Positions 14,060-54,077 of a stretch of DNA of 64,000 nt are shown here, one piece after another; within the stretch, counting starts at the first letter, position 1; the number at the start of each line of letters is the position of its first letter. The notes beneath the pieces are model-generated. The model was not told the origin of the DNA. It ran no database searches and worked only from the letters and a program-made list of their open reading frames with translations. Origin of the DNA: Haliotis rufescens (taxonomy: Eukaryota); NCBI RefSeq assembly GCF_023055435.1, contig NW_025964383.1, forward strand, positions 12,834,001 through 12,898,000, in the 5' to 3' direction. The translations under genes and the position numbers were made by a program.

Positions 14060-15104
14060 ATGGACGCCTTCCCGAAGTGTTCTATATGTCAGCAGCAGTT
14101 TACCCTGAAAAGTCCAGTCCCCTACTTACTGCCCTGTCTACACGCTGTGTGTGAGACGTGTGTGACATCTGCAGCTGGTGGAGTGATATCATGCTTTACA
14201 TGTCAGAGGGAGGTCAACCTCACAGACACAAGTCTCCAGAAGGATGCAGTCAGACAGAAGGAAATATTCCACCTGACAGTCAAACATCGCCCAACAGAGC
14301 TTCTCTGTACAAATGAAGATGACGGGAACCAGGCTGTGTGTTGGTGTCAGGATTGTGAAGAGTTCCTCTGTGAATACTGCCAGAACATGCACAGCAGCGT
14401 CAAACTTACCAAGAACCATGTACTTCAAAACTTTGGTGACATGGGACCGACTGTCTCGAATATTCCATCATATTGCGGTATCCATAAACACCACCCCCTT
14501 TATCTGTTTGATAAAAGCTGCAAGAAGTTAATCTGTGCGAGATGTAGGATTGAAGACCACGCAGACCATGAAGTTGTGGAGCTGGATGTGGTTGCTGATA
14601 CTGTAACAAAACAGCTGGACCATCATAAGAATGAGCTCTCAAAGTTACAGGCTCGCCAGCAATCACATATGCAGAGCCTTAGGCAAGGAAGCGAATTCAC
14701 AGACAAAACACACAACACTTTGAAAGAAAGTATTGGCCACACATTTCAATCTCTGAGATCACAACTTGACCAAAGAGAGAAGGAACTTCTGATCGATGTT
14801 GAAAGTCAGACGAAGGAGACCAAGTCAACTCTATATGCTCGTCTAAACACCTGTGAAGAAGAATGGAAGACATGCACTGGGGCTTTAGACTACATCGCCA
14901 AAGTCTTCCTCTATGCCTCGAAGTCAGACCTCGTGGAGAGTTATGTAGGGGACATAACTCGGAACTATCTAGAAACTGCTGCGCCTCAAACACATGTCGT
15001 ACCTTCAGCTGTCTTCAACACCAACAGCTTGTCAACACTGAAATCAACCATATCAGTGTTTGGTGCCATTTTGCCAAGGGAAGTGGATGAGGAATCAGTA
15101 AAAG
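14060..15104 (+). CDS. TRIM copy 1 coding exon 1: RING, B-box1, B-box2, coiled coil
   Basis: ORF 14048-15229; CSIC..LLPCLHAVCETC..CFTC; CWCQDCEEFLCEYCQNMH..H; CGIH..C..ICARC..H..H. Confidence 0.93.
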
Positions 15105-18100
15105 GTATTCACATCGAACATCATTGTAGTTTTATTCATTCTTTGTATGCGTACAGTTTTTTGCAAGTTCTTGTGACGATCTATTTCGTTTGCAGCCCCT
15201 CTGTTTTCTTCATGTGTTTCTCTATCTAAGACTCATGCTTTGTTTCTGAAGATTTAATGTTCGTAGACTGCACATAACATGTTCCCGGTGTTAATCGTCA
15301 GGAGTTATCCATCTGTTGTTTCAGACAAGGATACTCAAACTGACGATGACTTTATGGCAGACTTGGAAAGGAAACACAAAATGGTGAGTACAATCAGAAA
15401 AATCATGAAATCTTGCATGCACACTGACCAACAAACTGACCAACTACAGGTTGATCCAAAGCAAATTTGCCTCAATCGTCATAACTATGTTTTGTCATAT
15501 TGAGAGAAAGTGCATCAGACCATTTAACGCTTGTATTTTCGCAGGACCTGACAGAGCTGAAGACGAAAATTGCTTCAGATGAGAAACATATTGAAAGCCT
15601 CAAAACACTTACAGACAAGCTCAGTGTCGAAATCAGAAGCTTGAAATCGGTTTGTTTTTATTACCTAACATGTACACACCTTTAGACGTGTCAGCGTCTA
15701 TCATTTTATTCAAATATGTTGTGTGAGAGTGTCTTGAATTTTTGATATTGATTGCAACCGTTAATGATTGCATGTCTTGGAAATCCTTGACCCATGAGAT
15801 CCCATGACAGACACATGCTTTGTTATATAATACATATGCTATATTTTCAGCGCATTGAGGAGAAGGAAACCACAGAGAAGACCGCCTCAAACACCAGGGA
15901 GGTCTTACTTGGTAAATTTGTATCAAACTTCTTCTTTAAACCTCCCTTAATCACATTATCTCAGATACGTTTGAAAACTAAACATGCATCTCTATTTCCG
16001 TGAGTGGTAAACAGAGTAAAACCCACACACGAAGTCCCCCTGTCTCATCACACATATATATGGTGATGTATATATTGATGTTACAGGTGTGGCCAGAGAA
16101 TGCGGTGTTCATCTGCTGAAGTCAGAAGTTGTAGACAGATCAATGGTGCTGAAGTGTGAGTACATTTATCATGTATCTCCTTTGATATAAGTTTTCATGT
16201 CCATCGTGTTCAAGTATTATAAAACGTCAACACGTATGGTACATTTAGTCACCAACTACGATTGAGGGGCATAGAGTAATAAACTGGCTCATGCTTGGGC
16301 TAATGAAGGCCAGGCGCTGGCAGTCTTCGTGTGTCATTGGCTTGTTTATCTGGCCCATTTTAATTACTTGCAGGACACGTTGGTAACTGTGTACAACATC
16401 AGTCATTACAGCTTAATGTTGCTACATGATTAATTCACAACGCTTTGGTGTGACGTTGTTTCATTAATGATTATTTCTATACTCGTATATGCACGGGGTC
16501 GGTGTACGGTTCTCTGTAGGAAGTGGCAACATGGAGTCGAAGGCTTGCAGTATATACACACTGCTTTAGACAGGTAGATATATGTATATACAAGAAGCAC
16601 TAGGTGCCAGGGCAGCACAATCTGTTGGTGCCACGGATCGCCTTACCTACCCCTAGCTAGGCTGGGGGTGCGGCTATATTTCTTTGTCACAAGTCCAAAT
16701 ATTTCATATCCATGGTCAACAGACACGGATTAAGTCAACAATATAAACAACAGTAAATAATGAGTGACAAAGTTGCACACCTCGTTCAGGATGGCTGACA
16801 GTCGACGTACAATACAATTGAGATTTGCATATTTGAAGTAATTGCAATTAAGATAATAGACATATATATTTTATGGCTACAGGGTAATTCGCCTTTGTTC
16901 ATGCAGACAAAGGTCGCTTTAACAAATCTTACCAACCATATCATCGTCTTGGAAATGTTTACCTTAAAGTGAACCAATGACAGTTGCCATAAGTAGACAT
17001 TCCCCCCGCCTATGGTATCACGAAAAATATTTGCCAGATGGGTGAGTGCGTGTATTGTGATTAACGCCACTTTAAAATTCAATTCTGTTATACGATTTGG
17101 TAGCAGTTTAACATAGGTGAAAACCCCGAAGTAATGCAGGTCTTAGACCTTCAACCTTCTGATGAAGAACCCATGAGCTGACAAATGATATTCTGGGCTA
17201 ATTTTGAAATCAAACCAAAGATCACACAATTCTGCCACGCCTCGTTAAAACGAATAAGTTAGAAGTAAAACAAACATAGTATATTCTAAAGTCCATTGCC
17301 TTGGTGACACAAAAGAGTGAATGCGCGAATTGGGTTGAACCCCTCTTTAAAAAGTATTTCCTTGATATACCGACATGTCAGCTTGTGTGAGAGGAACGGA
17401 CAAAGTGATACAGGCATTAGGCAGTTGTCATGTATGAGGTGCTGACAAACATGATCAGGGAGAATCTTGGATTAGAATCCACGAGCATAGGTTTCTCAAA
17501 TTCGCCAGCAAATTGGGAAGCCAGAGGCGACTTGGCCACCAATGCCCCGACATGAAAGCCATTCGGTGGAATTAACTGCTTACAATTTACGAGATGCGGG
17601 GTGACAGTGGTTTTAGTGGTTTCCAACAGTGTTTCCTACTGCAGCTATAATTTATCGAGGAAATGAGCAGGAAAATACCGACTGAAATATTCCAGCAACA
17701 TGACAGCGGTCTGTAAATATTCGAGATCGAGTCTGGATCAGATAATCCAGTTATTGATATTATGAGCATCGATCCACCACGCAATTGGGATGCGATGACA
17801 TGCATCAACTATGTCAGCGAGTCTGAGCACCCGCTGTGAAGAAATGAGCGAGGAAAGAAGTGAGGGGGGTGGGGGAGGGATGGGTGGTGACAGTTGTTTC
17901 CAACAGTGTTTCTCACTGCAACTGTAACCTATCGAGGAAATGAGCAGGAAAATAAAGACTGAAAGCATAATCACGAGCACGGACATTGGGGACACACAAA
18001 CTGCGAGCACCCTGGCCACCCGACCGCCATCTCAGACGACGTAATGGGGACCTTGAAGAGAAGAAAGACGATGCAATCACTGCCAGGCAGACATTTTTAC

Positions 18101-21100
18101 ACGTTTGATGCACCCTTAGGATGTTCTGTATATCGTGCAATATCTGCGAAGTTCGGTCTACTTCTAAGATGTAATATCTGAAACATGTTAACATAAGCCT
18201 CACAATAATAAAAACCGAGCCAGTATGAAGTTGTCAGTGTTAATCGTGAGTTTCATGTACAGGCAGGTACAGAGGACTGTTTAACCGCTAAATTGGTCAT
18301 GTTGTTACCATTGACACTGTTGTGTCTGGTGATGTGCGTGTGTGAATAATTTCAAGTACATCAATATTCGCCTGCCGATAAAGTCACCGTGTTACTGAGA
18401 CGTGACAATATAGTCTCACAGACTTGGTTCTAAATAACCTGTGTGTCGCTCACGTGTGAATACAAATGTGTGTTGTGATGTATTAAGCAGATTATCGTTC
18501 CAGGGTAATGAAACTGCTATTGCAACACGTTGAACATTATTTATACACTGTTTGTGACCTTAGTCCCCAAATACGTGGATATCAAGGTTCACACATTAAG
18601 ATTTAAGACACTGGAACTTCTGCATGTATGTCTTGTCATTGTTCTTGCATCCGCCTCCTAACCTGCCGACATCTCAACTCTTTTATTATTACTTCCTTCG
18701 TTTGAACATTATAGACGGCGACTTGCGAAACGGACAATTTACAGGAGCTAATTTATTTTAAAGGCGAAATAGAGTTTGAAATATTGCATATAGCATTACT
18801 ACAAAACAATACCAAAAGTATCGAGCGATTTGAATGAATGGATGCGACATAGGAAGGAATAGGTGTAACATACTTATCAACAGAACATGTTGGCGGTGCA
18901 TTGTAAGGGTACAAACAATCGAGGAAGGCGACATGCGTGTGTGGTAAAAACCATAAACGTTTGAGATGACTTGATCAATAATGAGTTGTTCCCAACAAAT
19001 GGTCAAACTGTCGTTTATGCTCGACAAGGTCCGAATCAATCTCCCAATGACAATTTGCAGGATTCTTGTCAATTAATGTTGCAGCGGCTGGCCCAATTCG
19101 GCTAACGGCAGCCGTTGGCGTCGGCGTACACGTCCCCGGATTATGCGTTATAGGGGAGAGATCAGAACTCATGGATTTCATTGCAATCTTGTGATGTTTT
19201 GCTGTTGGAGGTAGTCATGAACGATACGTTTTCGTCTTGAAAGGCAAAACGTGGACTAGCATGCAGCGAAAACGGAACTACTATCGCCGCTAGCATGCTA
19301 TCTCGGTAGTACTGTCCAGTGACCGTCTTACATGTATGGACAATATGCAGTGGCGTTCTGGCAGTCATAGTGATCCTGCCCCATATCAGTACAGAGCTCG
19401 CAGCGATTTTGACAAAATCAAGAATGACCCCCTAGCCAGTGCACGGAGGTGACCCACGTGAGATGTTTCGGGTGTGTTGGGGCGTTAGGTTTTGGTTAAA
19501 AAAACTGTTCCATCTCTGGCATCCATATTTCTGGCGTGTCCAATGGACGCAACTCTGCAAATATGACATAGGTCTTGGGTGAGGTGAGGTGAAATTGGGT
19601 TTAACGTCGCGTCCATGATTATTGCACTTGTGTGTGGCTGCTTGTAATAGTTCGGACTGATGCCGATTTATATGCTTGCTCACTGAGATACCATGTGGCA
19701 GTTTAACATGAATACCCCACTCAGACACAGTATACTGACTCCGAGCCGACCAGTCCTTGTTTTAGCCCCTTAATGTCCAGCCTCAGACAGGGTAACAACA
19801 AGTATCATCTTTTAACGTCTTTTGGTATGACGCGGCCGGGGATTGAACCCCGGACCTTAAGCTCGCGAAGCTCTAGTAAATAGCGTTATTGACTTGTATT
19901 TACAGGTTATATTTTGCTAATCGGGGTTTGCGTCCATTGACAAAAATTATTTAAAAACATTTCCCATTTCATAATAATCAATAAAATTATCCCTACTTGT
20001 CACCGACCAGTTATCGCCATTTTTCATGTTATTTCTGAAATATCCCACGTTCAAAGTTAACTGTGCAATAAACTTTGAAAATGGGCAAATGTGCGTATTT
20101 CTGTCAGTGGAAAAATCCAATTCTGCTAACGTAGACGGTAGCCGTTGACGTCGGCGTACACGTCCCTGCATTATGCGTTATAGGGGAGAGATCAGAACTC
20201 ACGGCTGCAAGCTCCTCGCAGCGATAGCCCGTTCGCGGAACTCTCTATACCATCGCTGCCACCAGTCAATTATTTGAGGGACATACATCTGATGATTTTC
20301 TAATCCTGACAGTCATTTAGTTTCAACATTGCGTACAATCATACAAATGTTATTTGTTATGTCATGGAAAGAGTTTAGTCGCTTTTATTTAAATCTTTCT
20401 GTCATTTCTCACTGAAAATACTATCTCACTGCTTTAAATATCACTTTTTCATTTTTCATAACCTGCATCGTGAAACTCTAGTAAACAGCGTTATTGATTT
20501 GTATTTACAGGTTATATTTTGCTAATTGGGGTTTGCGTCCATTGACACATTTTTTTGAAAACATTAACTATTTAATAATAATAAACTTATCCCTACTTGT
20601 TAACGACCAGGTATCGCCATTTTTCATATTATTTCTGAAATATCCCACGTTAAAAGTTTACTGTGCAATAAACTTTGCAAATGGACAAATGCGCGTGTTT
20701 CTGTGCGTAGAAAAAAATCATTAGCTTCCTGTTATAACGCGACAACAGGGAATCAAATCAGTGGAAAAAGAAATTTTCCGTCGACAAACTGTACCAGTTA
20801 TCGCCATCATCTAAACAGCAAGTGCCACGTGATCAAGCACACCACTTCACTTTTACAAATTACATTTTTTATTTTCTCTGTTATCGCAAGCTGTTTTTAT
20901 ATTTGTTACAATTAATTAGAAATGCTTTTATCAATTTGTCGTCTGCAAACTGACGTAGACCAATGTGATCTACACGCTATGTACTATGGATTTCGCGATA
21001 TATACAGGGTTATTCACATTTGGAAAATAGCTCAAATAGGTTTTGGAATTGTTTTGGTGGAAGAAATGACAGACAGAAAGTAAGCTATGACAGATCTGAA

Positions 21101-23145
21101 AGTGCATCATCGTGTTGTTGGATTTTTGTTTCCGCGTGAGTTAGTCACGTGACACCGCCCGCGTGTCTCTTCTAAAGTTGTATTTGAGCAAGGTGATTAT
21201 ACGGTATGTATTTTAATATTTATTCACAGGAGTAATTTTTGTTTATCATTTGTAGATAAATATTTCTCTCTTCTAATGAAACCGAGCAAAGGTAAAACGA
21301 GATGCGATCACGTGCGCGCTGTAACGGAGAGTAAGCGATAATTGGTCTTCATCGACAGCTGGTCACTGGTCAGTTTTCAGGGTAACATGCGTGTTCACAG
21401 TTAGTTAACGGGAAAGTTCTCTTTCCACTCGTATTTCCTTCTCTGTGGTATAATAGAAATCAACCTATATGTTGTCCACGCAATGACATGAGCGCAGTTG
21501 ATATAATTTCACAAAACCAAATGTTTGTCGTGATGTTTTCGATACCAATTTTCAGAAATGACTAGAATGAAATTGACAACAATTGTTCACCTGCTTGCCT
21601 CTGCTTTTGAAACTGAGAGCAATCAAATAGCACGCGCCTCGGCTGGAGCGATGTCGACGTGATTTGCACGTTCTGGGCGGGCGGCTGGTCTATTTCGCAC
21701 GTGCCTCACGACGTTTCTTCTGACAGCAAAGCGCGAGGACATTTCAAAATATATTTGTATGTTTACAATTAATTTAATTGCTGTTTGGTCTCAACATGTT
21801 TTCGTTTGCAGAAGAACACTAAAACATACTCCAAATAATATAATAGCAGAATGTTCCAGAAATATTTCAAACATGACTTGTTCACTACATTTAATGTCGC
21901 TTATTGTTTATTGTGTTATTGACTGCTTGTGTCCTGTTCTGATAATGCTGCCCATCTCCTGTCTCCCATCGCCAAGCCCCCCAGCCCCCAGTGCGTCCTC
22001 CAACGTGCTACACCAAACTCCCCCAACTACCGGATGACGTCACCAGGTCACGTGACACTGTGATCTCAACATCCTCATTTTAAGCTTCTTCCTCATTATA
22101 CCGCGTTTACTCGTTTTTCTGTTAAACGACGGTGAACAACTGTGTTCGAGAGTATTCGCGCTCTGCGTGATTATTGCGCGATGTGTATCCTTTTGTTTTA
22201 GTAATTCAGAATCTACACTGCAAATATTTCAGTGACGAACCTCTTACACCATACCTGTTACTAACTTATTTTACATTCGCGTTAAAATATTACAGTATAC
22301 ATACACCAAAACGCAATACACAGTAGGTTTTATGTTAATCCTACTGCACTGTGATTATATTACACTATTTGTATGTCAGTACATTGTACTTAGCTGTGAA
22401 TTCCTTGCAATTGGATATTTTTGTACAACTTTACTATCCCAATTTGTCTCATGTGTTATTCACTTGTAAACTACATTCATATGTTGTAGGTATACATCTG
22501 AAGTATGACAAAGACAGAGTCAATCTCGACACAGTCCACATCAACACAGAAGGAGACCTGGTCAACAGGGAGTCGGACACCAGACCTGCAGGGGAGGGGA
22601 GACTGAAGAAGTACTGGGGCACATGTAGCACTGCCCCCCTCCCCCGGGCTGGCTGTCCCCAGTACTGGGAGGTGTTGAACAGGGTCAGTCTGGACGAACC
22701 ACTCACAGATAACGTCCTCATCCTGGAGGTGGGTGTATGCAGGGAGGAGCAGAGGGACGTGTCACACTGTATCAATGCACAACCCAGCACCTGCTGCATG
22801 CAGGTCGTCCACTGTCCTACACACGGCGGGATATGCAGGGAGACATGGAAGGAGAGGAAGCATGTGCTGTGTCTGCCTGACACTCTCCCCAACACAGCAG
22901 GGGCATCACACACACTACATTACGGTGTTGTCTATGATGACACCAGGAAGAAGATTGTCTTCATTGATGTGAAGGAGAATAGAGTGATATCGACGTTAGA
23001 CAATGTAGACTCCAGTCAGCCACTGTGGCCGATGTTCGGGGTGTATATGCCCTCATTGGGTATTGTCAGCATGACACTTGTAGTGGGCAGCGACATCAAC
23101 ATGACAGAGGAGAAGAAAGCAATGATTGTCAAGGCGCTGTCGTGA
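14060..23145 (+). CDS. TRIM E3 ligase copy 1 (RING, B-box1, B-box2, coiled coil, SPRY-like), 664 aa; join(14060..15104,15325..15383,15545..15649,15851..15911,16087..16155,22490..23145)
   Basis: All GT-AG junctions phase-compatible (1,0,0,1,1), total 1995 nt; C3HC4 RING, two B-boxes, coiled coil, YWEV/LEVGV/GVVYD/LWPMFG SPRY-type motifs. Confidence 0.88.
15325..15383 (+). CDS. TRIM copy 1 coding exon 2
   Basis: tttcag|..ATG|gtgagt, conserved in copy 2. Confidence 0.8.
15545..15649 (+). CDS. TRIM copy 1 coding exon 3 (coiled coil)
   Basis: ttcgcag|GAC..TCG|gtttgt. Confidence 0.8.
15851..15911 (+). CDS. TRIM copy 1 coding exon 4
   Basis: ttttcag|CGC..G|gtaaat. Confidence 0.8.
16087..16155 (+). 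CDS. TRIM copy 1 coding exon 5
   Basis: ttacag|GT..T|gtgagt. Confidence 0.8.
18780..19395 (-). pseudogene. Tc1/mariner transposase 3' fragment in the TRIM intron (second piece 20125-20205; paralogs 43790-44360, 45270-45350)
   Basis: SVLIWGRITMTARTPLHIV..TGQYYRDSML..VVPF..FQDENV; SDLSPI..GRVRRRQRLPSTLAEL. Confidence 0.7.
19579..19870 (-). mobile_element. tRNA SINE family D (Meta-domain-like); other copies 27880-28000, 35935-36065, 44732-45020, 52845-52965
   Basis: Rev-comp B box ggttcaatcc followed by gtcataccaaaagacgttaaaagatgatac. Confidence 0.7.
19871..20710. repeat. ~235-bp direct repeat (19871-20110 and 20477-20710), also present in copy 2
   Basis: ctctagtaaa.agcgttattga.ttgtatttacaggttatattttgc... 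occurs twice. Confidence 0.8.
22030..22056. promoter_or_regulatory. Intronic ETS-like + CRE + E-box/CLEAR motif cluster
   Basis: CCGGATGACGTCACCAGGTCACGTGAC, identical at 47170-47196; a further GTCACGTGAC at 21144. Confidence 0.35.
22490..23145 (+). CDS. TRIM copy 1 terminal exon, SPRY/B30.2-like domain
   Basis: ORF 22351-23145; ttgtag|22490; PQYWEV, LEVGVC, HYGVVYD, QPLWPMFGVY. Confidence 0.9.
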
Positions 23146-25288
23146 TGGTGACAGTGATTGTCAAGGCGCTGTCGTGATGGTGACAATGGTTGTCAAGTGC
23201 TGTCGTGATAGTGACAATGATTGTCAAGGCGTAGTCGTGATGGGGACAATGATTGTTAAGGCGTTGTCGTGATGGTGACAATGGTTGTCAGGGCGTTGTC
23301 GTGATGGTGACAATGATTGTTCAGGCGCTGTCGTGATGGTGACAGTGATTGTCAAGGGCTATCGTGAAGGTGACAATGATTGTCAAGGGCTGTTGTGATG
23401 GTGACAATGATTGTTAAGGCGCGGTCGTGATGGTGTCAATGATTGTCAAGGCGCTGTCGTGATGGTGACAATGATTGTCAAGACGTTGTCGTGATGGTGA
23501 CAATGGTTGTCAATGCGTTGTCGTGATGGTGACAATGATTTCAAGGCATTGTCATGATGGTGACAATGATTGTCAAGGGCTGTCGTGATGGTGCAAATGA
23601 CTGTCAATGGGTTGTCGTGATGGTGACAATGATTGTCAAGGCGCTGTCATGATGGTGACAATGGTTGTCAAGGCGTTGCATGATGCTGACGATTATAAAG
23701 GCGTTGTCATGATGGTGACAATGATTGTCAAGGCGCCGTCATGATGGTGACAATGATTGTCAAAGCGTTGTCGTGATGGTGACAATGATTGTCAAGGCGT
23801 TGTCATGATGGTGACAATGATTGTCAAGGCGCTGTCGTGATGGGGACAATGGTTGTCAAGGCGCTGTCGTGATGGGGACAATGATTGTCAAAGCGCTGTC
23901 GTGATTGTGACAATGGTTGTCAAGGCGTTGTCGTGATGGTGACAATGATTGTTCAGGCGCCGTCGTGATGGTGACAATGATCGTCAAGGGCTATCGTGAT
24001 GATGACAATGATTGTCAATACGCTGTCGTGATGTTGACAATGATTGTCAAGGCGTTGTCGTGATGGTGACAATGGTTGTCAAGGCGTTCTGGTAATAGTG
24101 ACAATGCTTGTCAAGGCGTTGTCATGATGGTGACAATGATTGTCAAGGCGTTGTCGTGAAGGAAACAATGATTGTCAGGCCGTTGTCGTGATGTTGACAA
24201 TGGTTGTCAATGCATTGTCGTGATGGTGAAAATGATTGTCAAGGCGTTGTGATGATAGTGACAATGATTGTAAAGGGCTGTCGTGATAGTGACAATAATT
24301 TTCAAGGCTTTGTCGTGATGGGGACAATGATTATCAAGGCGTTGTTGTGATGGTGACAATGGTTGTCAAGGCGTTGTCGTGATGGTGACAATGATTGTCA
24401 AGACGTTGTCATAATGGTGACAATGTTTGTCAAGGCACTGTCGTGATAGTGACAATGATTGTCAAGGGCTGTCGTGATGGTGACAATGATTGTCAAGGCG
24501 TTGTCTTGATTGTGACAATGCTTGTCAACGGCTGTCGTGATGGTGACAATGATTGTCAATACGCTGTCGTGATGGTGACAGTGATTGTCAAGGCGCTGTC
24601 GTGATGTTGATAATGATTGTCATGGCACTGTCGTGATGGTGACAATGGTTGTCAAGGGCTGTCGTAATGGTGACAATGATTGTCAAGACGCTTTCGTGAT
24701 GATGACAATGTTTGTCAAGGGATGTCCTGATAGTGACAATGATTTTCAAGGCGTTGTCGTGAAGGAAACAATGATTGTCAGGGCGTTCTCGTGATGGTGA
24801 CAATGCTTTCAAGGCGTTGTCGTGATGGTGACAATGATTGTCAAGGCGTTGTCATGACGGTGACAATGATTGTAAAGGCGCTGTCGTGATGGTGACAATG
24901 ATTGTCAAGGTCTGTCGTGATGGTGACAATGATTGTCAAGGCGTTGTCTTGATGGTGACAATGATTGTCAAGGGCTGTCGTGATGGTGACAATGATTGCC
25001 AATACGCTGTCATGATGGTGACAATGATTGTCAAGGCGCTGTCGTGATAGTGACAATGATTGTCAAGGCGTTGTCGTGATGGTGACAATGATTTCAAGGC
25101 ACTGTCGGGATGGTGACAATGATTGTCAAGGGTTGTCGTAATGGTGACAATTATTGTCAAGACGCTGTCGTGATGGTGACAATGATTGTCAAGGCGCTGT
25201 CGTGATGGTGACAATGATTGTCAAGGCACTGTCGGGATGGTGACAATGATTGTCAAGGCACTGTCGGGATGGTGACAATGATCGTGAT
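23121..25288 (+). repeat. 32-bp minisatellite (~68 units; consensus ATGATTGTCAAGGCGYTGTCGTGATGGTGACA) starting inside the TRIM stop region
   Basis: Directly visible tandem array with 31-bp variants. Confidence 0.97.
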
Positions 25289-25539
25289 ATGAACACACAG
25301 ATTTGTTGCAGATCCTTACTGATCAGGAACAACTACATGACTCGAACATGTCTTCTCTGTGAAGAAGGCATTCATCTTCGTATGTACAAATATCACAAGT
25401 AAACAGTGTAGTGTGTACACAACACAAAACCAGAAGTTTATCTTATGATCTCCTACACCTTTCAACTATAACCCCCTGAACCTGTAATCTTGATGTGATA
25501 TGTGTAAATGTATATAACATTTAGATAAAAGGTAAAACG

Positions 25540-25821
25540 TTTGTTGTTGTTTTTGTTTATTTGTTTGTTCGTTGTTTAACGCCGTACTCAACAATATTCC
25601 AGCTATATGATGGTGGTCGTTAACTAATCGAGTCTGGACCAGACAATTCAGTGATTGGCGTCAAGAGCATCCATCTTTGCAATTGGGATACGATGGCATG
25701 CATCAACCAAGTCAGCGAGCCTCACCGTCCAATCCTATTTGTCCCCTCTTACAAGCATAGTCGCCTCTCACAACTTGCATGTGTTGCTTAAGACCTATTC
25801 TGACTTTGATCTTCATGGGTG
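25540..25821 (-). mobile_element. SINE family C, near full length (paralog 50502-50783)
   Basis: (ttgt)n tail, shared 3' tail, core, and head cacccatgaagatc. Confidence 0.8.
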
Positions 25822-26684
25822 ACGTAAATCTATCATGGTACATGGTACGACACACAAGAAGGCAAGTCGCCGAACCTGACCAATCGATGGATGCTGTCGC
25901 CTCGTTTTGCATGCTGACAGGGGATAGCAGTGGGATTTCTTTAGATGTTTATCAAACAAAATAAAGTAAGTGACATTGCAATAAGCTATTGTTTTGATAA
26001 TAATAACTTAAAATTTGCTGATTTGCCGGACTAAGGAGGGCAGTTTAAAAGATTGAGGGCTTCTGCGAATGATTATTACAAGAAAAAATAGCGTTACCGT
26101 TATTATAGCTAAAATAGATAGAATTTGTTTTCAGATGAATATAAACATCAATATCGGTTTTGAAATATTTACTGCAATCAACAAACAATGAATGCCACTG
26201 AAGAACAAATCAGATGACGTCAAACAACGGGAGTCAAGCAATATGAGGACATTATCAAGTTACAATGGTCCGCTAATTCTGATAACATGCGGGTAGTTTA
26301 AAGATAATTCTCCCCATTTTAGCTATAAATTGCGTGGATCGATGCTCATGATGGCAATTACTGAACTGTTTGGTCCAGACTTGATTATTTATAGACCGCT
26401 GTCATATATCTCAACAATTGCTGAATGTGGCGTTAACCAGCAAACACACAAAAACCCATGGAGGTATGATTACATAGTTTGTAGCAATATACCGGGAAAC
26501 AACAGAAATGCCCTCAGCATTGGGACACTTTAACCATTATAATATGATTTTGTTATATTATTCCATAATGTTCCTCGGTAACATTTGTCTTGAAAACCTG
26601 TACAGTTTCCGAATACGATTTCAAGGCAACAAGCTGGTAGGGAGATGGAGGTATAGGTTGTATAAACCTTATGCATGTGCCGCC

Positions 26685-27015
26685 ACTAACACCATCACCA
26701 TCAACATGACCACCAACACGACCACTAACAACACGCACGATCACTAACACCATAACAACACCAATACCAACAATAGCAAGATCAACCCCAACAACACAAA
26801 CAACAACTATATCAACAACAACAACATCAACAACACAACCAACCACAGCAAGAACACCACCCACACGACCACCAACAACACGCACGACCTTTTACACCAC
26901 CAACTACACCAATACCAACAACAGCAAGATCAACACCAATACCACAAACAACAAGATCAACAACAACACCAACAACATCGATAACACCACCAACACCCAC
27001 AACGACACACACCAC
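26685..27015. repeat. AAC/ACC-rich low-complexity microsatellite (paralog 51628-51986)
   Basis: Degenerate (AAC/ACC)n. Confidence 0.9.
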
Positions 27016-27145
27016 CGTGGGTCTAGCTGAAGTGGTAAACGTCTGAGACCTATATCACTCCGGGCTTTCCTTGAACATTAAGCTGTCAGGCCGTGATATA
27101 ACTGGAATAATGTTAAAAGCAGCGCTGAACCCAACTCACTAACTC
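27016..27145 (+). mobile_element. SINE family B 3' half (paralog 51987-52113)
   Basis: gaagtggtaaacgtctgagacc..ccgtgatataactggaataatgttaaaagc. Confidence 0.75.
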
Positions 27146-27290
27146 ATCTTTGGAGACTAAACTTTGATGTTCTTTAATTCGGGATTTGAGGGGCCTAGAT
27201 GTTTCTCCAATGAAAGCTTGCCCACAACTGCACGGAATGTGGTACACTGCTCTTGATGGTTCTAGCTTGTGGCTGGATGGTTCAACTCCA
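27146..27290 (-). pseudogene. Penelope-like GIY-YIG endonuclease fragment (paralog 52113-52257)
   Basis: AVYHIPCSCGQAFIGETSRPLKSRIKEH. Confidence 0.8.
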
Positions 27291-27304
27291 CCTCCCCTCG
27301 TGCT

Positions 27305-27710
27305 CCGAACTAGACGTACATGTAGTTGCGTCGTTATCGCAGTCTGATGTAACGTCGTCGGATTCCCCTTCCAATCTAGATGTAGATGTAGTTGCATCGT
27401 TATCGCTGTCTGACGTAACGTCGTCGGATTCCCCTTTCGAACTAGACGTACATGTAGTTGCAACGTTATCGCTGTCTAACGGAACGTCGTCGGATTCCCC
27501 TTCCGAACTAGACGCACATGTAGTTGCATCGTCATCGCTGTCTGACGTAACGTCGTCGGATTTCCCTTCCGAACTAGACGCACATGTAATAGCGTCGTTA
27601 TCGCTGTCTGACGTAACGTCGTCGCATTCCCCTTCCGAACTAGACGTACATGTAGAAGCGTCCCTGACTCCGTCTGACGTGTCAGCTTCGCTACCCCCTT
27701 CTTCCGAACA
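27305..27710. repeat. 66-bp tandem repeat, ~6 units (paralog 52272-52677)
   Basis: Unit ccgaactagacgtacatgtagttgcatcgttatcgctgtctgacgtaacgtcgtcggattcccctt. Confidence 0.92.
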
Positions 27711-27813
27711 GAAAAATACTTAGGTTTCCGAGAGGTGGTGAGGTGAAGAGGGGTTTAAGATTATTACACTTATATAGCAACGTGCATGTGCGTGTGTGTG
27801 TGTGTGTGCGTGC

Positions 27814-27844
<31 letters not shown>

Positions 27845-28530
27845 TGATTGTACTAGTCCGGACTAATCCCGATGTTATAGTGTTGGCCGACAGATGCCAT
27901 GCCTCAGTTTAACATGAATACCCAGCTAAGACACAGTATACTGACTCTAAGCCGACCAAGCCTTGTTGCCGAGCGCCAGACAGGGTAATAACAAGTACCA
28001 TCTCTTATCAAAGACGCCGAATGTGCTATAACCTCTTATGTAACACATCGTTGTAAATTAATGGTCCCGATGCAATCTCACGCAATAAGACCTCAGCAAT
28101 GCATGGTGGGTAACGTTGATAACGTTGCCAGTTATGGCGGCAGGTTATATCGAGGCTCGGCGGTAGACAACTATGTGGAACTACAAGCTACGTCCATCTT
28201 ATTTCTTATAAAGCACATTGGATTCCAATCTCGGGTTATCACAGAATGTTATGGAGTTGACAGAACCTCGACATCGGAGAGAAGCGTTCGTAAAATAGCA
28301 CGACTACAATTTAACCGAGAATGCTGTGTTGATATGGGATCTGGGATTGCTTGAAATTATCGAAAAAATCAGATCAGGCGCTAAAACAACCGTATGACGC
28401 GGAACCTCGTTTTCAATCGGTTATCGGCTGAACACGTGGTTTTCGGACATTGGTCGAAGCGTGTCATCTCGGTATTGGCGCCTCTGAGCGTTGTCAGGGC
28501 GAGACGTGACCATCAATCTTACATACCTTG

Positions 28531-28880: not shown

Positions 28881-28936
<56 letters not shown>

Positions 28937-39158: not shown

Positions 39159-40209
39159 ATGGACACCTTCCCGAAGTGTTTGGTCTGTCAGCAGCAGTTT
39201 ACTCTGAAAGGTCCAGTCCCCTACTTACTGCCCTGTCTACACGCTGTGTGTGAGACGTGTGTGATATCTGCAGCTGGTGGTGTGATATCGTGCTCTACAT
39301 GTCAGAGGAAGGTCAACCTCACAGACACAAGCCTCAAGAGGGATGCAGTCAGACAGAAGGAAATATTCCACCTCACAGTCAAACATCGCCCCACAGAGCT
39401 ATTCTGTACAAATGACGATGACGGCAACCAGGCTGTGTGTTGGTGTCAGGAGTGTGAAGAGTTCCTCTGTGAATACTGCCAGAACATGCACAGCAGCGTC
39501 AAACTTACCAGGAAACATGTACTTCAAAATGTCGGTAGCATGGAACCGACTGTCTCGAACTTTCCTCCTTTTTGCAGTGTCCATAAATACGACCTCCTTT
39601 ATCTGTTTGATAAAAGCTGCAAGAAGTTAATCTGTGCGAGATGTAGACTTGATGACCACGCAGACCATGATGTTGAGGAGCTGGATGTGGTTGCTGATAC
39701 TGTAACAAAACAGCTGAACCATCATAAGAATGAGCTATCAACGTTACAGGCTCGCCAGCAATCACACATGCAGAGCATCAGACAGGGAACCGAATCCACC
39801 GACAGAACGCACAACTCTTTGATAGAAACTATTGGTCACACATTCCAATCTCTGAGATCACAACTTGACCAAAGAGAGAAGGAACTTCTGATCGATCTTA
39901 AAAGTCAGACGAAGGAGACCAAGGCAAATCTACATGCTCAACTCACCACCTGCAAAGAAGAATGGAAGACATGCACTGGGCTTTTAGACTACATCGCCAA
40001 AGTCCTCTTCTATGCCTCAAAGTCAGACCTCGTGGAACTGGAGAGTTATATAGGGGACATAACTCGGAACTATCTAGAAACTGCTGCGCCTCAAACACAT
40101 GTCGTACCTACAGCTGTCTTCAACACCAACAGCTTGTCAACACTGAAATCAAACATATCAGTGTTTGGCGCCATTTTGCCAAGGGAAGTGGATGAGGAAT
40201 CTGTAAAAG
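39159..40209 (+). CDS. TRIM copy 2 coding exon 1: RING, B-box1, B-box2, coiled coil
   Basis: ORF 39087-40280; ctttcag|a ATG; donor G|gtattc. Confidence 0.93.
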
Positions 40210-43200
40210 GTATTCACATTGAACATTATTGTTGTTGTATTCATTCTTTGTATGTGTACAATGTTTGCAAGTTCTTGTGACATTCTATTTCGTTAGAGAC
40301 CCTCTTTTTTCTTCATGTGTTTCTCTATCTAAGACTCATGCTTTTTCAGAAGATTTAATGTTCGTAGACTGCACATAACATGTTCCTGGTGTTAATCGTC
40401 AGGAGTTATTCGTCTGTTGTTTCAGACAAGGATACTCAGACTGATGATGACTTTATGGCAGACTTGGAAAAGAAACACAAAATGGTGAGTACAATCAGTG
40501 TTGGTACATCATGAATTCTTGCATGCACACTGACCAACAAACTGACCAACTACAGGTTGATCCAAAGCAAATTTGCCTCAATCGTCATAACTATGTTTTG
40601 TCATATTGAGAGAAAGTGCATCAGACCATTTAACGCTTGTATTTTCGCAGGACCTGACAGAGCTGAAGACAAAAATTGCTTCAGATGAGAAACATATTGA
40701 AAGCCTCAAAACACTTACAGACAAGCTCAATGTCGAAATCAGAAGCTTGAAATCGGTTTGTTTTTATTACCTAACATGTACACACCTTTAGACGTGTCAG
40801 CGTCTATCATTTTATTCAAATATGTTGTGTGAGAGTGTCATGAATTCTTTATATTGATTGCAACCGTTAATTATTGCATGTCTTGGAAATCCTAGACCAA
40901 TGAGATGCCATGACAGGCACGTGCTTTGTTATATAACACATATGCTATATTTTCAGTGCATTGAGGAGAAGGAAACCACAGAGAAGAGCGCCTCAAAAAC
41001 CATGGATGTCTTACTTGGTAAAGTTGTATCACACTTCGTCTGTAAACCTCCCTTCATCACATAATATCTCCATGTCCGAGAGTGGTAAACAGAGTAAAAC
41101 CCACACACGAAGTCCCCCTGTCTCATCACACATGTATATGGTCATGTATATATTGATGTTACAGGTGTGGCCACAGATTGCGGTGTTCACCTGCTGAAGT
41201 CAGAAGTTGTAGACAGATCTATGGTGCTGAAGTGTGAGTACATTTATCATGTATCTCCTTTCATATAGGTTTTGATGTACGTCGTGTTCAAGTAATATAA
41301 AACGTCAACACGTATGGAACATTTAGTCACCCACTACGATTGAGGGGCATAGAGTAGCTAATTGGCTCATGCTTGGGCTACTGAAGGTCAGGCGCTGGCA
41401 GTCTTTGTGTGTCATTGGCTTGTTTACCTGGCCCATGTTAATTACTTACAGGACACGTTGGTAACTGTGTACAACATCAGTTATTATAGCTTAATGTTGC
41501 TACATGATTAATTCACAACGCATTGGTGTGACGTTGTTTTATTAATGATTTTTTGTATACTCATATGTGCACGGGGCCGGTTTTCGGTTCTCTGCAGGAA
41601 GTGGCAACATGGAGTCGATAGAAGGCTTGCGGTATATAGACATTGCTTTAGACAGGTAGATGTATATACAAGAAGCACTAGGTGCCAGGTCAGCACATTC
41701 TGTTGGTGCCACGGATCGCCTAACCTACCACTAGCTAGGCGAAGGGTGCGGCAATATTTCTTTTTCACAAGTCCAAATATTTCATATCCATGGTCAACAG
41801 ACACGGATTTAGTCAACAATATAAACAACAGTAAATAATGAGTGACAAAGTTGCACAGCTCGTTCAGGATGGCTGACAGTCGACGTACAATACAATTGAG
41901 ATTTGCATATTTTAAGTAATTACAATTAAGATAATAGACATATATATTTTATGACTACAGGGTAATTCGCCTTTGTTCATGCAGACAAAGGTCGCTATAA
42001 CAAATCTTACCCACAATATCATCGTCTTGGAATTGTTTACCTTAAAGTGAACCAATGACAGTTGCCATAATAAGACATTCTCCCCGCCTATGGTATCACG
42101 AAAAATATTAGCCAGAGGGGTGAGTGAGTATATTGTGATTAACGCCTCTTTAAAAATCAATTCTGTTATACAATTTGGTAGCAGCTGAACATAGGTGAAA
42201 ACCCCGAAGTAATGCATGTCTTAGACCTTCAACCTTTTGATGAAGAACCCATGAGCGGGCAAATGATATTCTGGGCTAATTTTGAAATCAAACCAAAGAT
42301 TACACAATTCTGGCACGCCTCGTTATAACGAATAAGTTAGAAGTAAAACAAACATAGTATATGTATGTGTGGGTGGAGCGGACAAAGTGATACAGGCATT
42401 AGGCAGTTATCATGTATGAGGTACTGACAAACATGATCAGGGAGAATCTTGGATTAGAATCCACGAGCATAGGTTTCTGAAATTCGTCAGCAAATTGGGG
42501 TGCCAGAGGCGACTTGGCGACCAATGCCACGACATAAAAGCCATTTGGTGAAATTAACTGCTTACAATTTATGAGATGAGGGGGTGGGGTGGGGGTTGGG
42601 GTTGGGGGGGGGGGGGGTGGGGGGGGGGGGTGACAGTGGTTTCAGTGGTTTCCAACAGTGTTTCCAACTGCAGCTATAATTTATCGAGGAATTGAGCAGG
42701 AAAATAACGACTGAAATATTCTAGCAACATGACAGCGGTCTGTAAATATTCGAGATCGAGTCTGGATCAGACAATCCAGTTATTGACATTATGAGCATCG
42801 ATCCAACACGCAATTGGGATGCATGCATCAACTATGTCAGCGAGTCTGATCACCCGCTGTGAAGAAATGAGCGAGGTAAGAAGTGAGGGGGGTGGGGAGG
42901 GTTTGGTGGTGACAGTTGTTTCCAACAGTGTTTCTAACTGCAGCTGTAACTTATCGAGGAAATGAGCAGAAAAATATAGACTGAAAGCATAATCACGAGC
43001 ACGGACATTGGGGACACACAAACTGCGAGCACCCTGGCCACCCGACCGCCATCTCAGACGACGTAATGGGGACCTTGGAGAGAAGAAAGACGATGCAATC
43101 ACTGTAACGCCAGGCAGACATTTTTACACGTTTGATGCACCCTCGGGATGTTCTGTATGTCGTGCAATATCTGCGAAGTTCGTTCTACTGAATATCTGAA

Positions 43201-46200: not shown

Positions 46201-48269
46201 TTTTTGGGGGAAGAAATGACAGACAGAAAGTAAGCTTTGACAGATCTGAAAGTGCATCATCGTGTTGTTGGATTTTTGTTTCCGCGTGAGTTAGTCACGT
46301 GACACCGCCCGCGTGTCTCTTCTAAAGTTGTATTTCAGCAAGGTGGTTATAGGGTATGTTTTTTAATATTTATTCACAGGAGTAATTTTTGTTTATCATT
46401 TGTAGATAAATATTTCTCTCTTCTAATGAAACCGAGCAAAGGTAAAACGAGATGCGATCACGTGCGCGCTGTAGCGTGGACTAAGCGATAATTGGTCCTC
46501 GTCGACAGCTGGTCACTGGTCAATTTTCAGGGTAACATTCGTGTTCACAGTTAGTTAACGGGAAAGTTCTCTTTCCACTCGTAATTCCTACTCTGTGGTA
46601 CAATAGAAATCAATCTAAATTTTGTCCACACAATGACATAAGCGCATTTGATCTTAATTTCACAAAACCAAATGTTTGTCGTGATGTTTTCGAAACCAAT
46701 TTTCAGAAATCATAAGAATGAAATTGACAACAATTGTTCATCTGCTGGCATCTGCTTTTGAAACTGAGAGCAATCAAATAGCACGCGCCTCGGCTGGAGC
46801 GGTGTCGACATGATTTGCACGTTCTGGGCGGGCGGCTGGTCTATTTCGCACGTGCCGCACGACGTTTATTCTAACAGCAAAGCGCGAGGACATTTCAAAA
46901 TATATTTGTATATTTACAATTAATTTAATTGCTGTTTGGTTTTCGTTTACAGAAGAACACTTTAACATACTCCAAATAAAATAATAGCAGAATGTTCCAG
47001 AAATATTTCAAACATGACTTGTTCACTACATTTAATGTCGCTTATTGTTTATTGTGTTATTGACTGTTTGTGTCCTGTTCTGATAATGCTGCCCATCTAC
47101 TGTCTCCCATTGCCAAGCACCCAGCCCCCTGTGCGTCCTCCAACGTGCTACACCATACTCCACCAACTACCGGATGACGTCACCAGGTCACGTGACACTG
47201 TGATCTCAACATCTTCATTTTAAGCTTCTTCCTCATTATACCGCGTTCACTCGTGTTTCTGTTAAACGACGGTGAACAACTGTGATCGCGAGTATTCGCG
47301 CTCTGCGTGATTATTGCGCGATGTGTATCCTTTTGTTTTAGTAATTCATAATCGCCACTGCAAATAGTTCAGTGACGAACCTTTTACACCAGAGCTGTTA
47401 CGAACTTATTTTACATTCGCGTTAAAAGATTACAGTATACATACACCAAAACGTAATACACAGTAGGTCTGATGTTCATACTATTACACTATTTGTTTAT
47501 CAGTGCATTGTACTTAGCTGTGCATTCCTTGCAATTGGATATTTTTGTACAACTTTAATATCCCAATTTGTCTCAAGTGTTATTCACTTGTAAACTACAT
47601 TCATGTGTTGTAGGTATACATCTGAAGTATGACAAAGACAGAGTCAATCTCGCCAAAGTCCACATCAACACAGAAGGAGTCCTGTTCAACAGGAAGTCGG
47701 ACACCAGACCTGCAGGGGAGGGGAAACTGAAGAAGTACTGGGGCACATGTAGCACTGCCCCCCTCCCCCGGGCTGGCTGGCCCCAGTACTGGGAGGTGGT
47801 GAACAGGGTCAGTCTGGACAAACCACTCACAGTGGAGGCCCTCATCCTGGAGGTGGGTGTATGCAGGGAGGAGCAGAGGGACGTGTCTCATTCTATCAAT
47901 GGAGAACCCAGCTCCTGCAGCATGGCCGTCACCCACTGTACTACACACGGCGGGATATGCAGGAGGACATGGAAGGAGGAGGAGCAGGTGCTGTGTCTGC
48001 CTGACACTCTCCCCAACACAGCAGGGGCATCACACACACTACATTACGGTGTTGTCTATGATGACGCCAGGAAGAAGATTGTCTTCATTGATGTGAAGGA
48101 GAACAAAGTGATGTCGACATTAGACAATGTAGACTCCAGTCAGCCACTGTGGCCGATGTTCGGGGTGTATAACCCATCTCTCCTCACTGTCAGCATGACA
48201 CTTGTAGTGGGCAGCGACATCAACATGACAGAGGAGAAGAAAGCAATGATTGTCAAGGCGCTGTCGTGA
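39159..48269 (+). CDS. TRIM E3 ligase copy 2 (RING, B-box1, B-box2, coiled coil, SPRY-like), 666 aa; join(39159..40209,40426..40484,40651..40755,40957..41017,41165..41233,47614..48269)
   Basis: Same exon phases as copy 1, 2001 nt, no stops. Confidence 0.88.
40426..40484 (+). CDS. TRIM copy 2 coding exon 2
   Basis: Splice sites and paralogy. Confidence 0.8.
40651..40755 (+). CDS. TRIM copy 2 coding exon 3
   Basis: Splice sites and paralogy. Confidence 0.8.
40957..41017 (+). CDS. TRIM copy 2 coding exon 4
   Basis: Splice sites and paralogy. Confidence 0.8.
41165..41233 (+). CDS. TRIM copy 2 coding exon 5
   Basis: Splice sites and paralogy. Confidence 0.8.
47614..48269 (+). CDS. TRIM copy 2 terminal exon, SPRY/B30.2-like domain
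   Basis: ORF 47568-48269; ttgtag|47614. Confidence 0.9.
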
Positions 48270-50252
48270 TGGTGACAGTGATTGTCAAGGCGCTGTCGTG
48301 ATGGTGACAATGGTTGTCAAGTGCTGTCGTGATAGTGACAATGATTGTCAAGGCGTAGTCGTGATGGGGACAATGATTGTTAAGGCGTTGTCGTGATGGT
48401 GACAATGGTTGTCAAGTGCTGTCGTGATAGTGACAATGATTGTCAAGGCGTAGTCGTGATGGGGACAATGATTGTTAAGGCGCTGTCGTGATGGTGACAA
48501 TGGTTATCAGGGCGTTGTCGTGATGGAGACAATAATTGTTCAGGCCCTGTCGTGATGGTGACAGTGATTGTCAAGGGCTGACGTGAAGGTGACAATGATT
48601 GTTAAGGCGCGGTCGTGATGGTGACAATGGTTGTCAAGACGTTGTCGTGATGGTGACAATGATTGTCAAGGGCTGTCGTGATGGTGACAATGACTGTCAA
48701 GGCGTTGTCGTGATAGTGACAATGATTGTCAAGGCGTTGTCATGATGGTGACAATGGTTGTCAAGGCGTTGCATGATGGTGACGATTGTAAAGGCGTTGT
48801 CATGACGGTGACAATGATTGTTAAGGCGCGGTCGTGATGGTGACAATGATTGTCAAGGCGTTGTCATGATGGTGACAATGATTGTCAAGGGCTGTCATGA
48901 TGGTGACAATGACTGTCAAGGCGTTGTCGTGATAGTGACAATGATTGTCAAGGCGTTGTCATGATGGTGACAATGGTTGTCAAGGCGTTGCATGATGGTG
49001 ACGATTGTAAAGGCGTTGTCATGACGGTGACAATGATTGTCAAGGCGCCGTCGTGATGGTAACAATGATTGTCAAGGCGTTGTCGTGGTGGTGACAATGA
49101 TTGTCAAGGCGTTGTCATGATGGTGACAATGATTTCAAGGGCTGTCGTGATTGTGACAATGATTGTCAAGGCGCTGTCATGATGGTGACAATGATTGTCA
49201 AGGCGCTGTCATGATGGGGACAATGATTGTCAAGGTGCTGTCGTGATGGGGACAATGGTTGTCAAGGCGTTGTCATGATGGTGACAATGATTGTTCAGGC
49301 GCTGTCGTGATGGTGACAATGATCGTCAAGGGCTGTCGTGATAATGACAATGATTGTCAATACGCTGTCGTGATGGTGACAATGATTGTTAATGCGCCGT
49401 TGTGATGGTGACAATGATTGTCAAGGCGTTGTCGTGATGGTGACAATGGTTGTCAAGGCGTTGTCGTGATGGTGATAATGATTGCCACGGCGTTGTCATG
49501 ATGGTGACAATGATTGTCAAGGGCTGTCGTGATGGTGACAATGATTTTCAAGGCGTTGTCATGAAGGAAACAATGATTGTCAGGGCGTTGTTGTGATGGT
49601 GACAATGGTTGTCAAAGCATTGTCGTGATTGTGACAATGATTGTCAAGGCGTTGTCATGATGGTGACAATGATTGTAAAGGCGCTGTCGTGATAGTGACA
49701 ATAATTGTCAAGGCATTTACGTGATGGGGACAATGATTATCAAGGCGCTGTCGTGGTGGTGACAATGGTTGTCAAGGCGTTGTCGTGATTGTGACAATGA
49801 TTGTCAAGGCGTTGTCATGATGGTGACAATGATTGTCAAGGCACTGTCGTGATAGTGACAATGATTGTCAAGGGCTGTCGTGATGGTGACAATGATTGTC
49901 AAGGCGTTGTCTTGATGGTGACAATGATTGTCAAGGGCTGTCGTGATGGTGACAACGATTTTCAAGGCGTTGTCGTGACGGAAACAATGATTGTCAAGGC
50001 GCTGTCGTGATGGTGACAATGATTGTCAAGGCACTGTCGGGATGGTGATAATGATTGTCAAGGCACTGTCGTGATGGTGACAATGATTGTCAAGGCACTG
50101 TCGTGATGGTGACAATGATTGTCAAGGGCTGTCGTGATGGTGACAATGATTGACAAGGCTCTGTCGTGATGGTGAAAATGATTGTCAAGGCACTGTCGGG
50201 ATGGTGACAATGATTGTCAAGGCACTGTCGGGATGGTGACAATGATCGTGAT
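48245..50252 (+). repeat. 32-bp minisatellite (~63 units), copy 2
   Basis: Same unit as 23121-25288. Confidence 0.97.

Positions 50253-53731: not shown

Positions 53732-53794
<63 letters not shown>

Positions 53795-54041: not shown

Positions 54042-54077
<36 letters not shown>

What the first reader, a model, noticed from the sequence alone, without database searches (positions are those of the whole stretch)
23121..25288. TRIM stop codon is the first unit of a ~2 kb palindromic minisatellite, in both paralogs
Seen: the last seven codons and stop (ATG ATT GTC AAG GCG CTG TCG TGA = MIVKALS*) plus TGGTGACA are exactly the 32-bp unit, which is then repeated ~68x here and ~63x at 48245-50252. Each junction forms TGACAAT-G-ATTGTCA, self-complementary except the centre, so any two units can pair over ~15 bp. 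Diagnostic variant units (gtagtcgtgatggggaca, gaaggaaacaatg) are shared by both arrays, so the array predates the duplication and was kept in both copies. Inference: if transcribed, the 3' UTR is a 2-kb ladder of mini-ORFs and hairpins. It could affect mRNA stability, reinitiation or small-RNA production, supply backup C-termini, or act as a recombination hotspot next to the variable SPRY exon.
Basis: partly seen in the sequence, partly recalled or inferred. Interest (0 to 1): 0.7.

Follow-up and report, generated by a model that had tools for sequence, protein, structure and literature searches.

The report
Gene ending copied into tandem repeat
In a large abalone family of likely immune genes, the last seven codons and stop codon have been copied head-to-tail up to 68 times behind the gene, leaving the protein end intact; this is likely a harmless by-product of replication slippage rather than a regulatory device.

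Summary
A 32-bp minisatellite (68 and 63 copies) starts in the last seven codons and stop of two intact TRIM genes with a PRY-SPRY last exon (homologues named Haliotis). It is family-wide: 55 of 64 close paralogous loci carry 2-68 units, and all 491 genome-wide matches of a 28-mer lie behind this exon. The C-terminal helix is older than the repeat: 0 of 76 distant paralogues have a repeat over the stop. The array most likely arose in place by slippage. The stop lies inside the unit, so expansion leaves the protein unchanged. Only unit 1 is clearly constrained (0 of 55 indels against 149 of 836). RNA-like runs hold multi-unit junctions and downstream flank, so the array is probably 3' UTR. The proposed functions find little support. 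Folding is ordinary against a tandem-aware null (68 of 300), the palindrome is not conserved, 321 of 836 inner mini-ORFs are broken, and exon divergence peaks 300-400 bp away and does not track copy number. Small RNA was not testable. An unrelated 24-bp repeat containing the stop arose in one other paralogue.

The parts
14060..15104 (+). Gene A first coding exon of the 664-aa model: RING, two B-boxes, coiled coil
   Evidence: Pfam; tblastn of annotated homologues; splice model
15325..16155 (+). Gene A four short inner exons (15325-15383, 15545-15649, 15851-15911, 16087-16155)
   Evidence: GT-AG, open frame; exon 15851-15911 chosen as best score against P0003
22490..23145 (+). Gene A last coding exon, PRY-SPRY/B30.2 fold, ending in a helix and TGA
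   Evidence: model pLDDT 93, helix 206-216; Foldseek TRIM65 PRY-SPRY E 1.5e-8; Pfam SPRY only E 0.067
23122..23153 (+). Unit 1 of array A: last seven codons, stop, 8-nt spacer
   Evidence: sequence; 0 of 55 unit-1 indels family-wide
23120..25282 (+). Minisatellite A, 68 x 32 bp, beginning and ending on the same 7-nt word (incomplete last unit)
25283..25500 (+). Unique flank, probably still 3' UTR; first canonical AATAAA only at 25960, variants at 25398 and 25524
   Evidence: an RNA-like contig end matches 25288-25317; hexamer scan; 3' end not mapped
39159..41233 (+). Gene B exons 1-5 (39159-40209, 40426-40484, 40651-40755, 40957-41017, 41165-41233)
47614..48269 (+). Gene B last coding exon (PRY-SPRY), 86% amino-acid identity to A
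48244..50246 (+). Minisatellite B, 63 x 32 bp

Best explanation
This is a gene-family-specific minisatellite whose first unit is the end of the coding sequence; it likely arose once, in place, by slippage between short direct repeats 32 bp apart, and is likely close to neutral because each unit carries its own stop codon, so gains and losses leave the protein unchanged. Shown: the unit is the coding end plus spacer; it is confined to one clade of TRIM/PRY-SPRY last exons; copy number is labile (1-68); unit 1 is free of indels while inner units decay; the C-terminal helix exists without a repeat in distant paralogues. Inferred: a first duplication at the AATGA microhomology joined the 3' spacer to the codons before the Met and so created the palindrome as a by-product. 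Later slippage and unequal exchange then changed copy number, and gene duplication and exchange of the last exon carried the array through the cluster. The array probably lies in the 3' UTR. Exchange between unit 1 and inner units may sometimes alter the last residues.
For: 491 genome-wide matches (28-mer, up to 1 mismatch) all lie in fetched last-exon loci: 485 in parsed arrays, 6 in interrupted continuations. 55 of 64 loci at 70% or more identity have 2 or more units, median 8.5 over all 64. 0 of 76 distant paralogues have a tandem repeat over the stop, though nearly all end in a similar helix. Single-unit L100 has AATGA exactly 32 nt apart, and L100 and L111 lack the palindrome arm. Recent duplicates differ in copies: 13/34, 1/4, 55/34. 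Indels: 0 of 55 in unit 1, 9 of 55 in unit 2, 149 of 836 in inner units. pN/pS is 0.18 over the seven unit-1 codons in 39 exons. RNA fold of 6 units: 68 of 300 tandem-shuffled units fold as well; DNA 32 of 200. Palindrome against other positions: p 0.68 (transitions) and 0.55 (transversions). A second, unrelated 24-bp repeat containing the stop is confined to L120 (17 of 17 hits).
Against: Neutrality is inferred from absent constraint, not measured: a 2-kb transcribed insert could change mRNA level without sequence conservation. The four most widespread substitutions (in 26, 25, 24 and 24 of 55 arrays) all improve a second, imperfect hairpin in the unit, and two of them co-occur (odds ratio 4.0; p 8e-4 on distinct elements). 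Synonymous-type transversions are more widespread in inner units than non-synonymous ones (7.6 against 4.8 arrays, p 0.011). In 17 paralogues the exon third next to the array was the least correlated with other segments (-0.16 to 0.16), and pS in codons 176-210 is 0.066 against about 0.03 in introns. Units and arrays share ancestry, so all p-values are too small. The exon tree is poorly resolved (15 of 61 branches starred), so a single origin is parsimonious, not proven.
Confidence: 0.72

Rival explanations
1. The array is a functional 3' UTR rheostat: copy number tunes stability, translation or small-RNA output of each immune paralogue.
For: RNA-like runs are spliced at the exon's acceptor and hold tandem junctions (4 of 4 runs) and flank (2 of 4). 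Arrays occur in runs of two organism labels. No canonical AATAAA lies within 2.8 kb of the stop in A, while many distant paralogues have one 2 nt after the stop.
Against: There is no structural excess over a tandem null, no conservation of the palindrome or the ATG, and no Rfam match. Close paralogues with one unit or none have intact exons.
Confidence: 0.12
2. The array nucleates gene conversion or unequal crossover and so drives diversification of the PRY-SPRY exon, as proposed for microsatellites beside sea-urchin Sp185/333 genes.
For: The exon is a patchwork: L061 and L096 differ at 1 of 600 intron sites and 5 of 600 flank sites but at 40 of 630 exon sites. The same exon type sits on CARD-bearing proteins whose RBCC is about 25% identical. 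The exon third beside the array is decoupled.
Against: In 11 disjoint recent pairs divergence is 10.5% at exon nt 210-315, but 3.1-3.8% at the exon end and 2.9% in the first 150 bp of flank, against 2.5-3.7% in the intron. Excess exon divergence against copy number gives rho 0.23, p 0.50, n 11; a 1-unit/4-unit pair shows the same peak. Far intron and far flank stay correlated across the array (rho 0.42, 139 non-independent pairs).
Confidence: 0.06
3. Inner units are a reserve of C-termini that selection keeps usable and that recombination swaps into the coding position.
For: 27 of 84 unit-1 variants are shared with the gene's own unit 2 (32%, against 9.6% for other genes' unit 2). In 7 of 8 arrays whose unit 1 lacks a stop at the usual place, other units lack it too. 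10 of 64 loci have a shifted stop, most with short Trp-rich tails. Synonymous transversions are in excess.
Against: Sharing is also expected if arrays grew from unit 1. 149 of 836 inner units have indels and 321 of 836 lack an intact mini-ORF. Transitions show no synonymous excess (p 0.71). Units are out of frame with each other.
Confidence: 0.05
4. Hairpin-templated repair (quasi-palindrome template switching) shapes the variants and helps the array expand; this can hold alongside the best explanation.
For: The top four substitutions all perfect the 8-bp imperfect hairpin seen in the fold. T16 and A21 co-occur.
Against: Two of the four are CpG decays and three are synonymous, so they could come from unit 1. 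Neighbouring perfecting changes exclude each other (A15 with T16 in 11 of 719 elements). The predicted G1 with C2 pair never occurs (0 of 43). Partner positions are independent (p 0.45-0.50). Only 2 of 719 elements are fully paired.
Confidence: 0.05

Closest known systems
Minisatellites born from unique sequence flanked by short direct repeats (Haber-Louis and Taylor-Breden models, as summarised in PMC3389668; passages read; original papers not read)
   Same: 32-bp unit, short direct repeat at both ends, incomplete last unit, variant units, labile copy number
   Different: The seed is a protein's last codons and stop; the array is multiplied over at least 55 loci by gene duplication
Repeats in the 3' UTR of immune genes, e.g. 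the salmon Sasa-UBA 3' UTR microsatellite (PMC2592554; one passage read)
   Same: Tandem repeat in the untranslated tail of a variable immune gene, usable as a linked marker
   Different: Here a 32-bp unit that overlaps the coding end
Sea-urchin Sp185/333 cluster with flanking microsatellites (PMC3091723; abstract read)
   Same: Large clustered invertebrate gene family with repeats beside each gene, proposed to promote duplication or conversion
   Different: Here the repeat comes from the gene itself, and my tests do not tie exon diversity to it
Fish finTRIM (PMC2657112) and NLR-B30.2 (10.1101/027151) families (passages read)
   Same: Clustered expansion, hypervariable B30.2 exon, exchange of that exon between different N-terminal architectures
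   Different: A separate mollusc expansion (14-18% identity to solved PRY-SPRY domains); the passages I saw mention no stop-spanning repeat; immune function is untested here

Membership tests
Minisatellite (VNTR) | Head-to-tail units of about 10-100 bp, array up to a few kb | tested here: met
   32 bp x 68 and x 63
Minisatellite (VNTR) | Locus-restricted, not a dispersed satellite or mobile element | tested here: met
   491 of 491 matches behind the family's last exon
Minisatellite (VNTR) | Variable copy number | tested here: met
   Between paralogues 1-68; recent duplicates 13/34 and 1/4
Minisatellite (VNTR) | Allelic length polymorphism between individuals | not testable with these tools
   One assembly; public contigs break in the array
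Minisatellite born by slippage at short direct repeats | Direct repeat of 5-10 bp flanking the seed; incomplete last unit | tested here: met
   The same 7-nt word starts and ends array A; AATGA 32 nt apart in single-unit L100
TRIM with PRY-SPRY/B30.2 | RING, B-box(es) and coiled coil in order | tested here: met
   Pfam B-box above cut-off in A (35.3 bits) and just below in B (23.9); RING 26.5 bits in A; coiled-coil-type hits downstream
TRIM with PRY-SPRY/B30.2 | C-terminal B30.2 fold in the same reading frame | tested here: met
   Open spliced frame; Foldseek top hits are PRY-SPRY; sequence signal weak
Structured regulatory 3' UTR element | Folding beyond a matched null and conserved pairing | tested here: not met
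   68 of 300 tandem nulls fold as well; no palindrome conservation or partner dependence; no Rfam hit
Structured regulatory 3' UTR element | Present in the mature mRNA | tested here: inconclusive
   Spliced RNA-like contigs hold several units and flank, but none spans an array and the run type is a guess
Small-RNA precursor | Small RNAs map to the repeat | tested here: inconclusive
   0 and 3 reads laid in two miRNA-Seq runs; the tool calls the first no test
Recombination hotspot | Exchange concentrated at the element and scaling with it | tested here: not met
   Flat divergence beside the array and no link to copy number, n 11, low power; one contrary hint

The most novel reading that the evidence does not exclude
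Abalone TRIM-B30.2 genes have turned their own stop-codon region into a transcribed, hypervariable array that acts as a per-paralogue expression dial and occasionally rewrites the protein's last residues. Stop-spanning duplication would then be a recurring route, seen twice in this superfamily, by which coding ends seed regulatory minisatellites.
Probability: 0.12. Interest if true: 0.65.

Novelty: new variant of a known kind. Interest (0 to 1): 0.33.

Why it matters
It is an unusually complete natural series for minisatellite birth and turnover: the single-unit state, 2-68 units, interrupted arrays and a constrained first unit all lie in one genome across about 60 paralogues. It shows that a non-triplet repeat can start inside a coding sequence if the unit contains the stop. 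The arrays could mark single genes in a hard-to-assemble cluster of likely immune genes, and they offer a ready test of whether 3' UTR repeat length affects expression. The host family (at least 150 PRY-SPRY exon matches, a hypervariable exon shared with CARD proteins) may interest mollusc immunologists more than the repeat; my searches listed no paper on it.

Tried and rejected
Hairpin significance from a plain dinucleotide shuffle (z -7.1) was rejected, because that null destroys periodicity; the tandem-aware null gives z -0.66. Summed contig depth over the array was not used as an expression measure: the likely DNA run shows the same peak. The run search listed no holder on record as RNA. 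Array-centred conversion, suggested, was followed up with longer flanks and not supported. Template-switch co-conversion was mostly not supported. The exon tree was too unresolved to order events. Rfam gave no match at E up to 1. Earlier findings of this scan: none returned. Literature: no listed title or abstract described a stop-spanning minisatellite or this family (listings only, and the library lacks most subscription papers). An assembly artefact was rejected for the repeat's existence, since tandem junctions occur in independent runs; exact copy numbers remain unverified. No supplements were read.
Full report
Observation. TRF reports a 32-bp array of 68.2 copies at 23120-25282 and 63.2 copies at 48244-50246. 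Unit 1 of A (23122-23153) is seven codons, TGA and an 8-nt spacer. The arrays lie in two copies of a roughly 19.5-kb tandem duplication (13605-33441 and 38919-58317, mostly 87-98% identical). Only 3 and 2 units equal the consensus.

The gene. Annotated homologues are all named Haliotis (81 hits). They map to six exons in each copy, giving open GT-AG frames of 664 and 666 aa. The first exon has RING, B-box and coiled-coil signals. The last exon is only weakly SPRY by sequence, but its model (pLDDT 93) matches TRIM PRY-SPRY structures (E 1.5e-8). MIVKALS is the end of the terminal helix, residues 206-216.

Distribution. The exon has 152 matches in the genome, a lower bound because 150 of 260 candidates were scored. 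I fetched 140 loci around them, plus the window's two; a handful of distant matches were not fetched. A 28-mer with up to one mismatch hits 491 places genome-wide, and all 491 lie in the fetched loci, with the same strand split of 405 and 86. More diverged copies elsewhere would be missed. Of 64 loci at 70% or more identity (three partial), 55 have 2-68 units, seven have one, and two have a diverged end followed by (GA)n. My parser undercounts three interrupted or degenerate arrays (L063, L109, L113). Of 76 distant paralogues, none has a tandem repeat over the stop, yet nearly all end in a similar helix (one match is truncated). The peptide is therefore older than the repeat.

Origin (inferred). 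Array A starts and ends on the same 7-nt word, and single-unit L100 has AATGA twice, 32 nt apart. This fits the short-direct-repeat models summarised in PMC3389668 (passages). The palindrome's left arm is formed by the duplication junction and is absent from single-unit genes such as L100 and L111, so it is best read as a by-product. The stop lies inside the unit, so adding units changes no amino acid. A second case points the same way: L120 (60% identity) has an unrelated 24-bp repeat, about 57 copies, whose consensus unit holds a TAG, and all 17 exact hits lie at that locus. The order of events is not resolved by the tree.

Constraint. Unit 1 has indels in 0 of 55 arrays, unit 2 in 9 of 55, and inner units in 149 of 836. 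pN/pS over its seven codons is 0.18 in 39 ungapped exons. 515 of 836 inner units keep an intact mini-ORF, and the A of the ATG is changed in 11.7%. Palindrome positions vary like others. Against this reading: synonymous-type transversions are more widespread in inner units (p 0.011), and the four most widespread substitutions all improve a second imperfect hairpin. Co-occurrence tests were mixed: one pair is enriched, one adjacent pair is mutually exclusive, and partner positions are independent. Shared ancestry inflates all these p-values.

Structure. Ten units fold at z -7.1 against plain shuffles. Against shuffled units repeated in tandem, 68 of 300 (RNA) and 32 of 200 (DNA) fold as well, and 74 of 5000 shuffled units have a palindrome arm of 7 bp or more. 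Rfam has no match.

Transcription. Reads were laid on the 2-unit paralogue L064, not on the window's array. In run X1 two contigs join the exon at its acceptor with over 660 unlaid upstream letters, and the intron has no cover, as expected for spliced RNA. All four runs show tandem junctions going back 64 nt. Two have flank contigs of depth 54 and 33, against 7 and 5 for intron pieces. In X5, flank cover falls about 200 nt past the array while the likely DNA run stays flat, and one contig end matches window 25288-25317. The runs are only guessed to be RNA, their organism labels are coded, and no contig spans an array, so a full 2-kb UTR is likely but not shown. Small-RNA runs gave no usable test.

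Recombination. A first pass on 17 paralogues found the exon third beside the array least correlated with other segments. With 3 kb of intron and 2.5 kb of flank, 11 disjoint recent pairs (chosen from 139 alignable pairs, under 6% background divergence) show 2.5-3.7% divergence in the intron and 10.5% at exon nt 210-315. Divergence is 3.1-3.8% at the exon end and 1.7-2.9% in the flank. Excess exon divergence does not track copy number (rho 0.23, p 0.50). The exon does diversify quickly (pN/pS 1.2-1.9 in codons 73-144) and appears exchanged between architectures, as described for fish finTRIM and NLR-B30.2 genes (passages). The array is not shown to cause it, unlike the proposal for Sp185/333 (abstract). 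Power is low.

C-termini. Ten of 64 loci have a shifted stop, mostly giving 1-4 extra residues and ending at an out-of-register stop. In 7 of 8 arrays whose unit 1 lacks the usual stop, other units lack it too. Exchange between unit 1 and the array may therefore touch the protein, but growth from unit 1 explains the same pattern.

Verdict. This is a real, family-specific, stop-spanning minisatellite, probably in the 3' UTR and most likely near neutral (0.72). My searches listed no description of it or of the host family (listings only). Quasi-palindrome mutagenesis is cited from the abstract of PMC3820800; PMC6905558 (passages) shows that long minisatellites also occur in an intron of an abalone gene. 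It is a new variant of a known kind; interest 0.33.

Noticed in passing
L120 (G000:C168:1393840-1399784), at the stop: Unrelated 24-bp minisatellite of about 57 copies whose unit holds the stop; its first unit encodes a C-terminal extension also seen in a homologue named H. asinina (P0078). All 17 exact hits are at this locus.
   Followed up: partly
window 22490-23145 and paralogues: The PRY-SPRY exon is hypervariable and patchwork: L061 and L096 are nearly identical in intron and flank but differ at 40 of 630 exon sites; pN/pS exceeds 1 in codons 73-144.
   Followed up: partly
P0008, P0011, P0013, P0014, P0022 (four from a contig the length of C580): CARD-bearing proteins carry a PRY-SPRY 84-88% identical to the window's while their RBCC part is about 25% identical, pointing to transfer or homogenisation of the last exon between architectures.
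   Followed up: partly
window 777-1541 and 1957-2151: ORF pieces match the N-terminal third of annotated P0002; no Pfam hit. One stretch recalls the middle region of Schlafen proteins (from memory, untested).
   Followed up: partly
window 14051-15145 against P0002: P0002 has the window's RBCC exon (99.4%) but later exons only 78-90% identical to the window, the last one at the identity level of L061, 330 kb away: a chimeric gene model or long-range splicing between tandem paralogues.
   Followed up: no
L086, L099, L092, L102: (GA)n tracts start 0, 0, 39 and 292 nt after the stop; a short GA seed is present in the older tail type.
   Followed up: no
L063, L109, L083, L116: L063 has an inner 60-bp unit that includes the older tail; L109's array is split by an insertion; in L083 and L116 insertions sit at the array end.
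   Followed up: no
L125, L130, L133-L135 and many of L201-L260: Many distant paralogues have AATAAA 2 nt after the stop; one clade has a 182-bp tandem repeat about 190 nt downstream.
   Followed up: no
window 26746-27701 and 51627-52668: Asn/Thr-rich degenerate repeats and a 66-bp repeat (about 6 copies) in Ser/Asp-rich open frames, next to a peptide that recalls a GIY-YIG retroelement endonuclease (from memory, untested).
   Followed up: no
window about 25540-25830, with related copies near 13763, 38650, 50520, 59010: Short dispersed repeat, very abundant in the RNA-like runs where its copy in L064 was laid.
   Followed up: no
window 6141-6917 and 10057-11171: Broken frames that look like a reverse-transcriptase element and a Mutator-like transposase (from memory, untested).
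   Followed up: no
window 31094-31223: 130-nt run of N, outside the finding.
   Followed up: no
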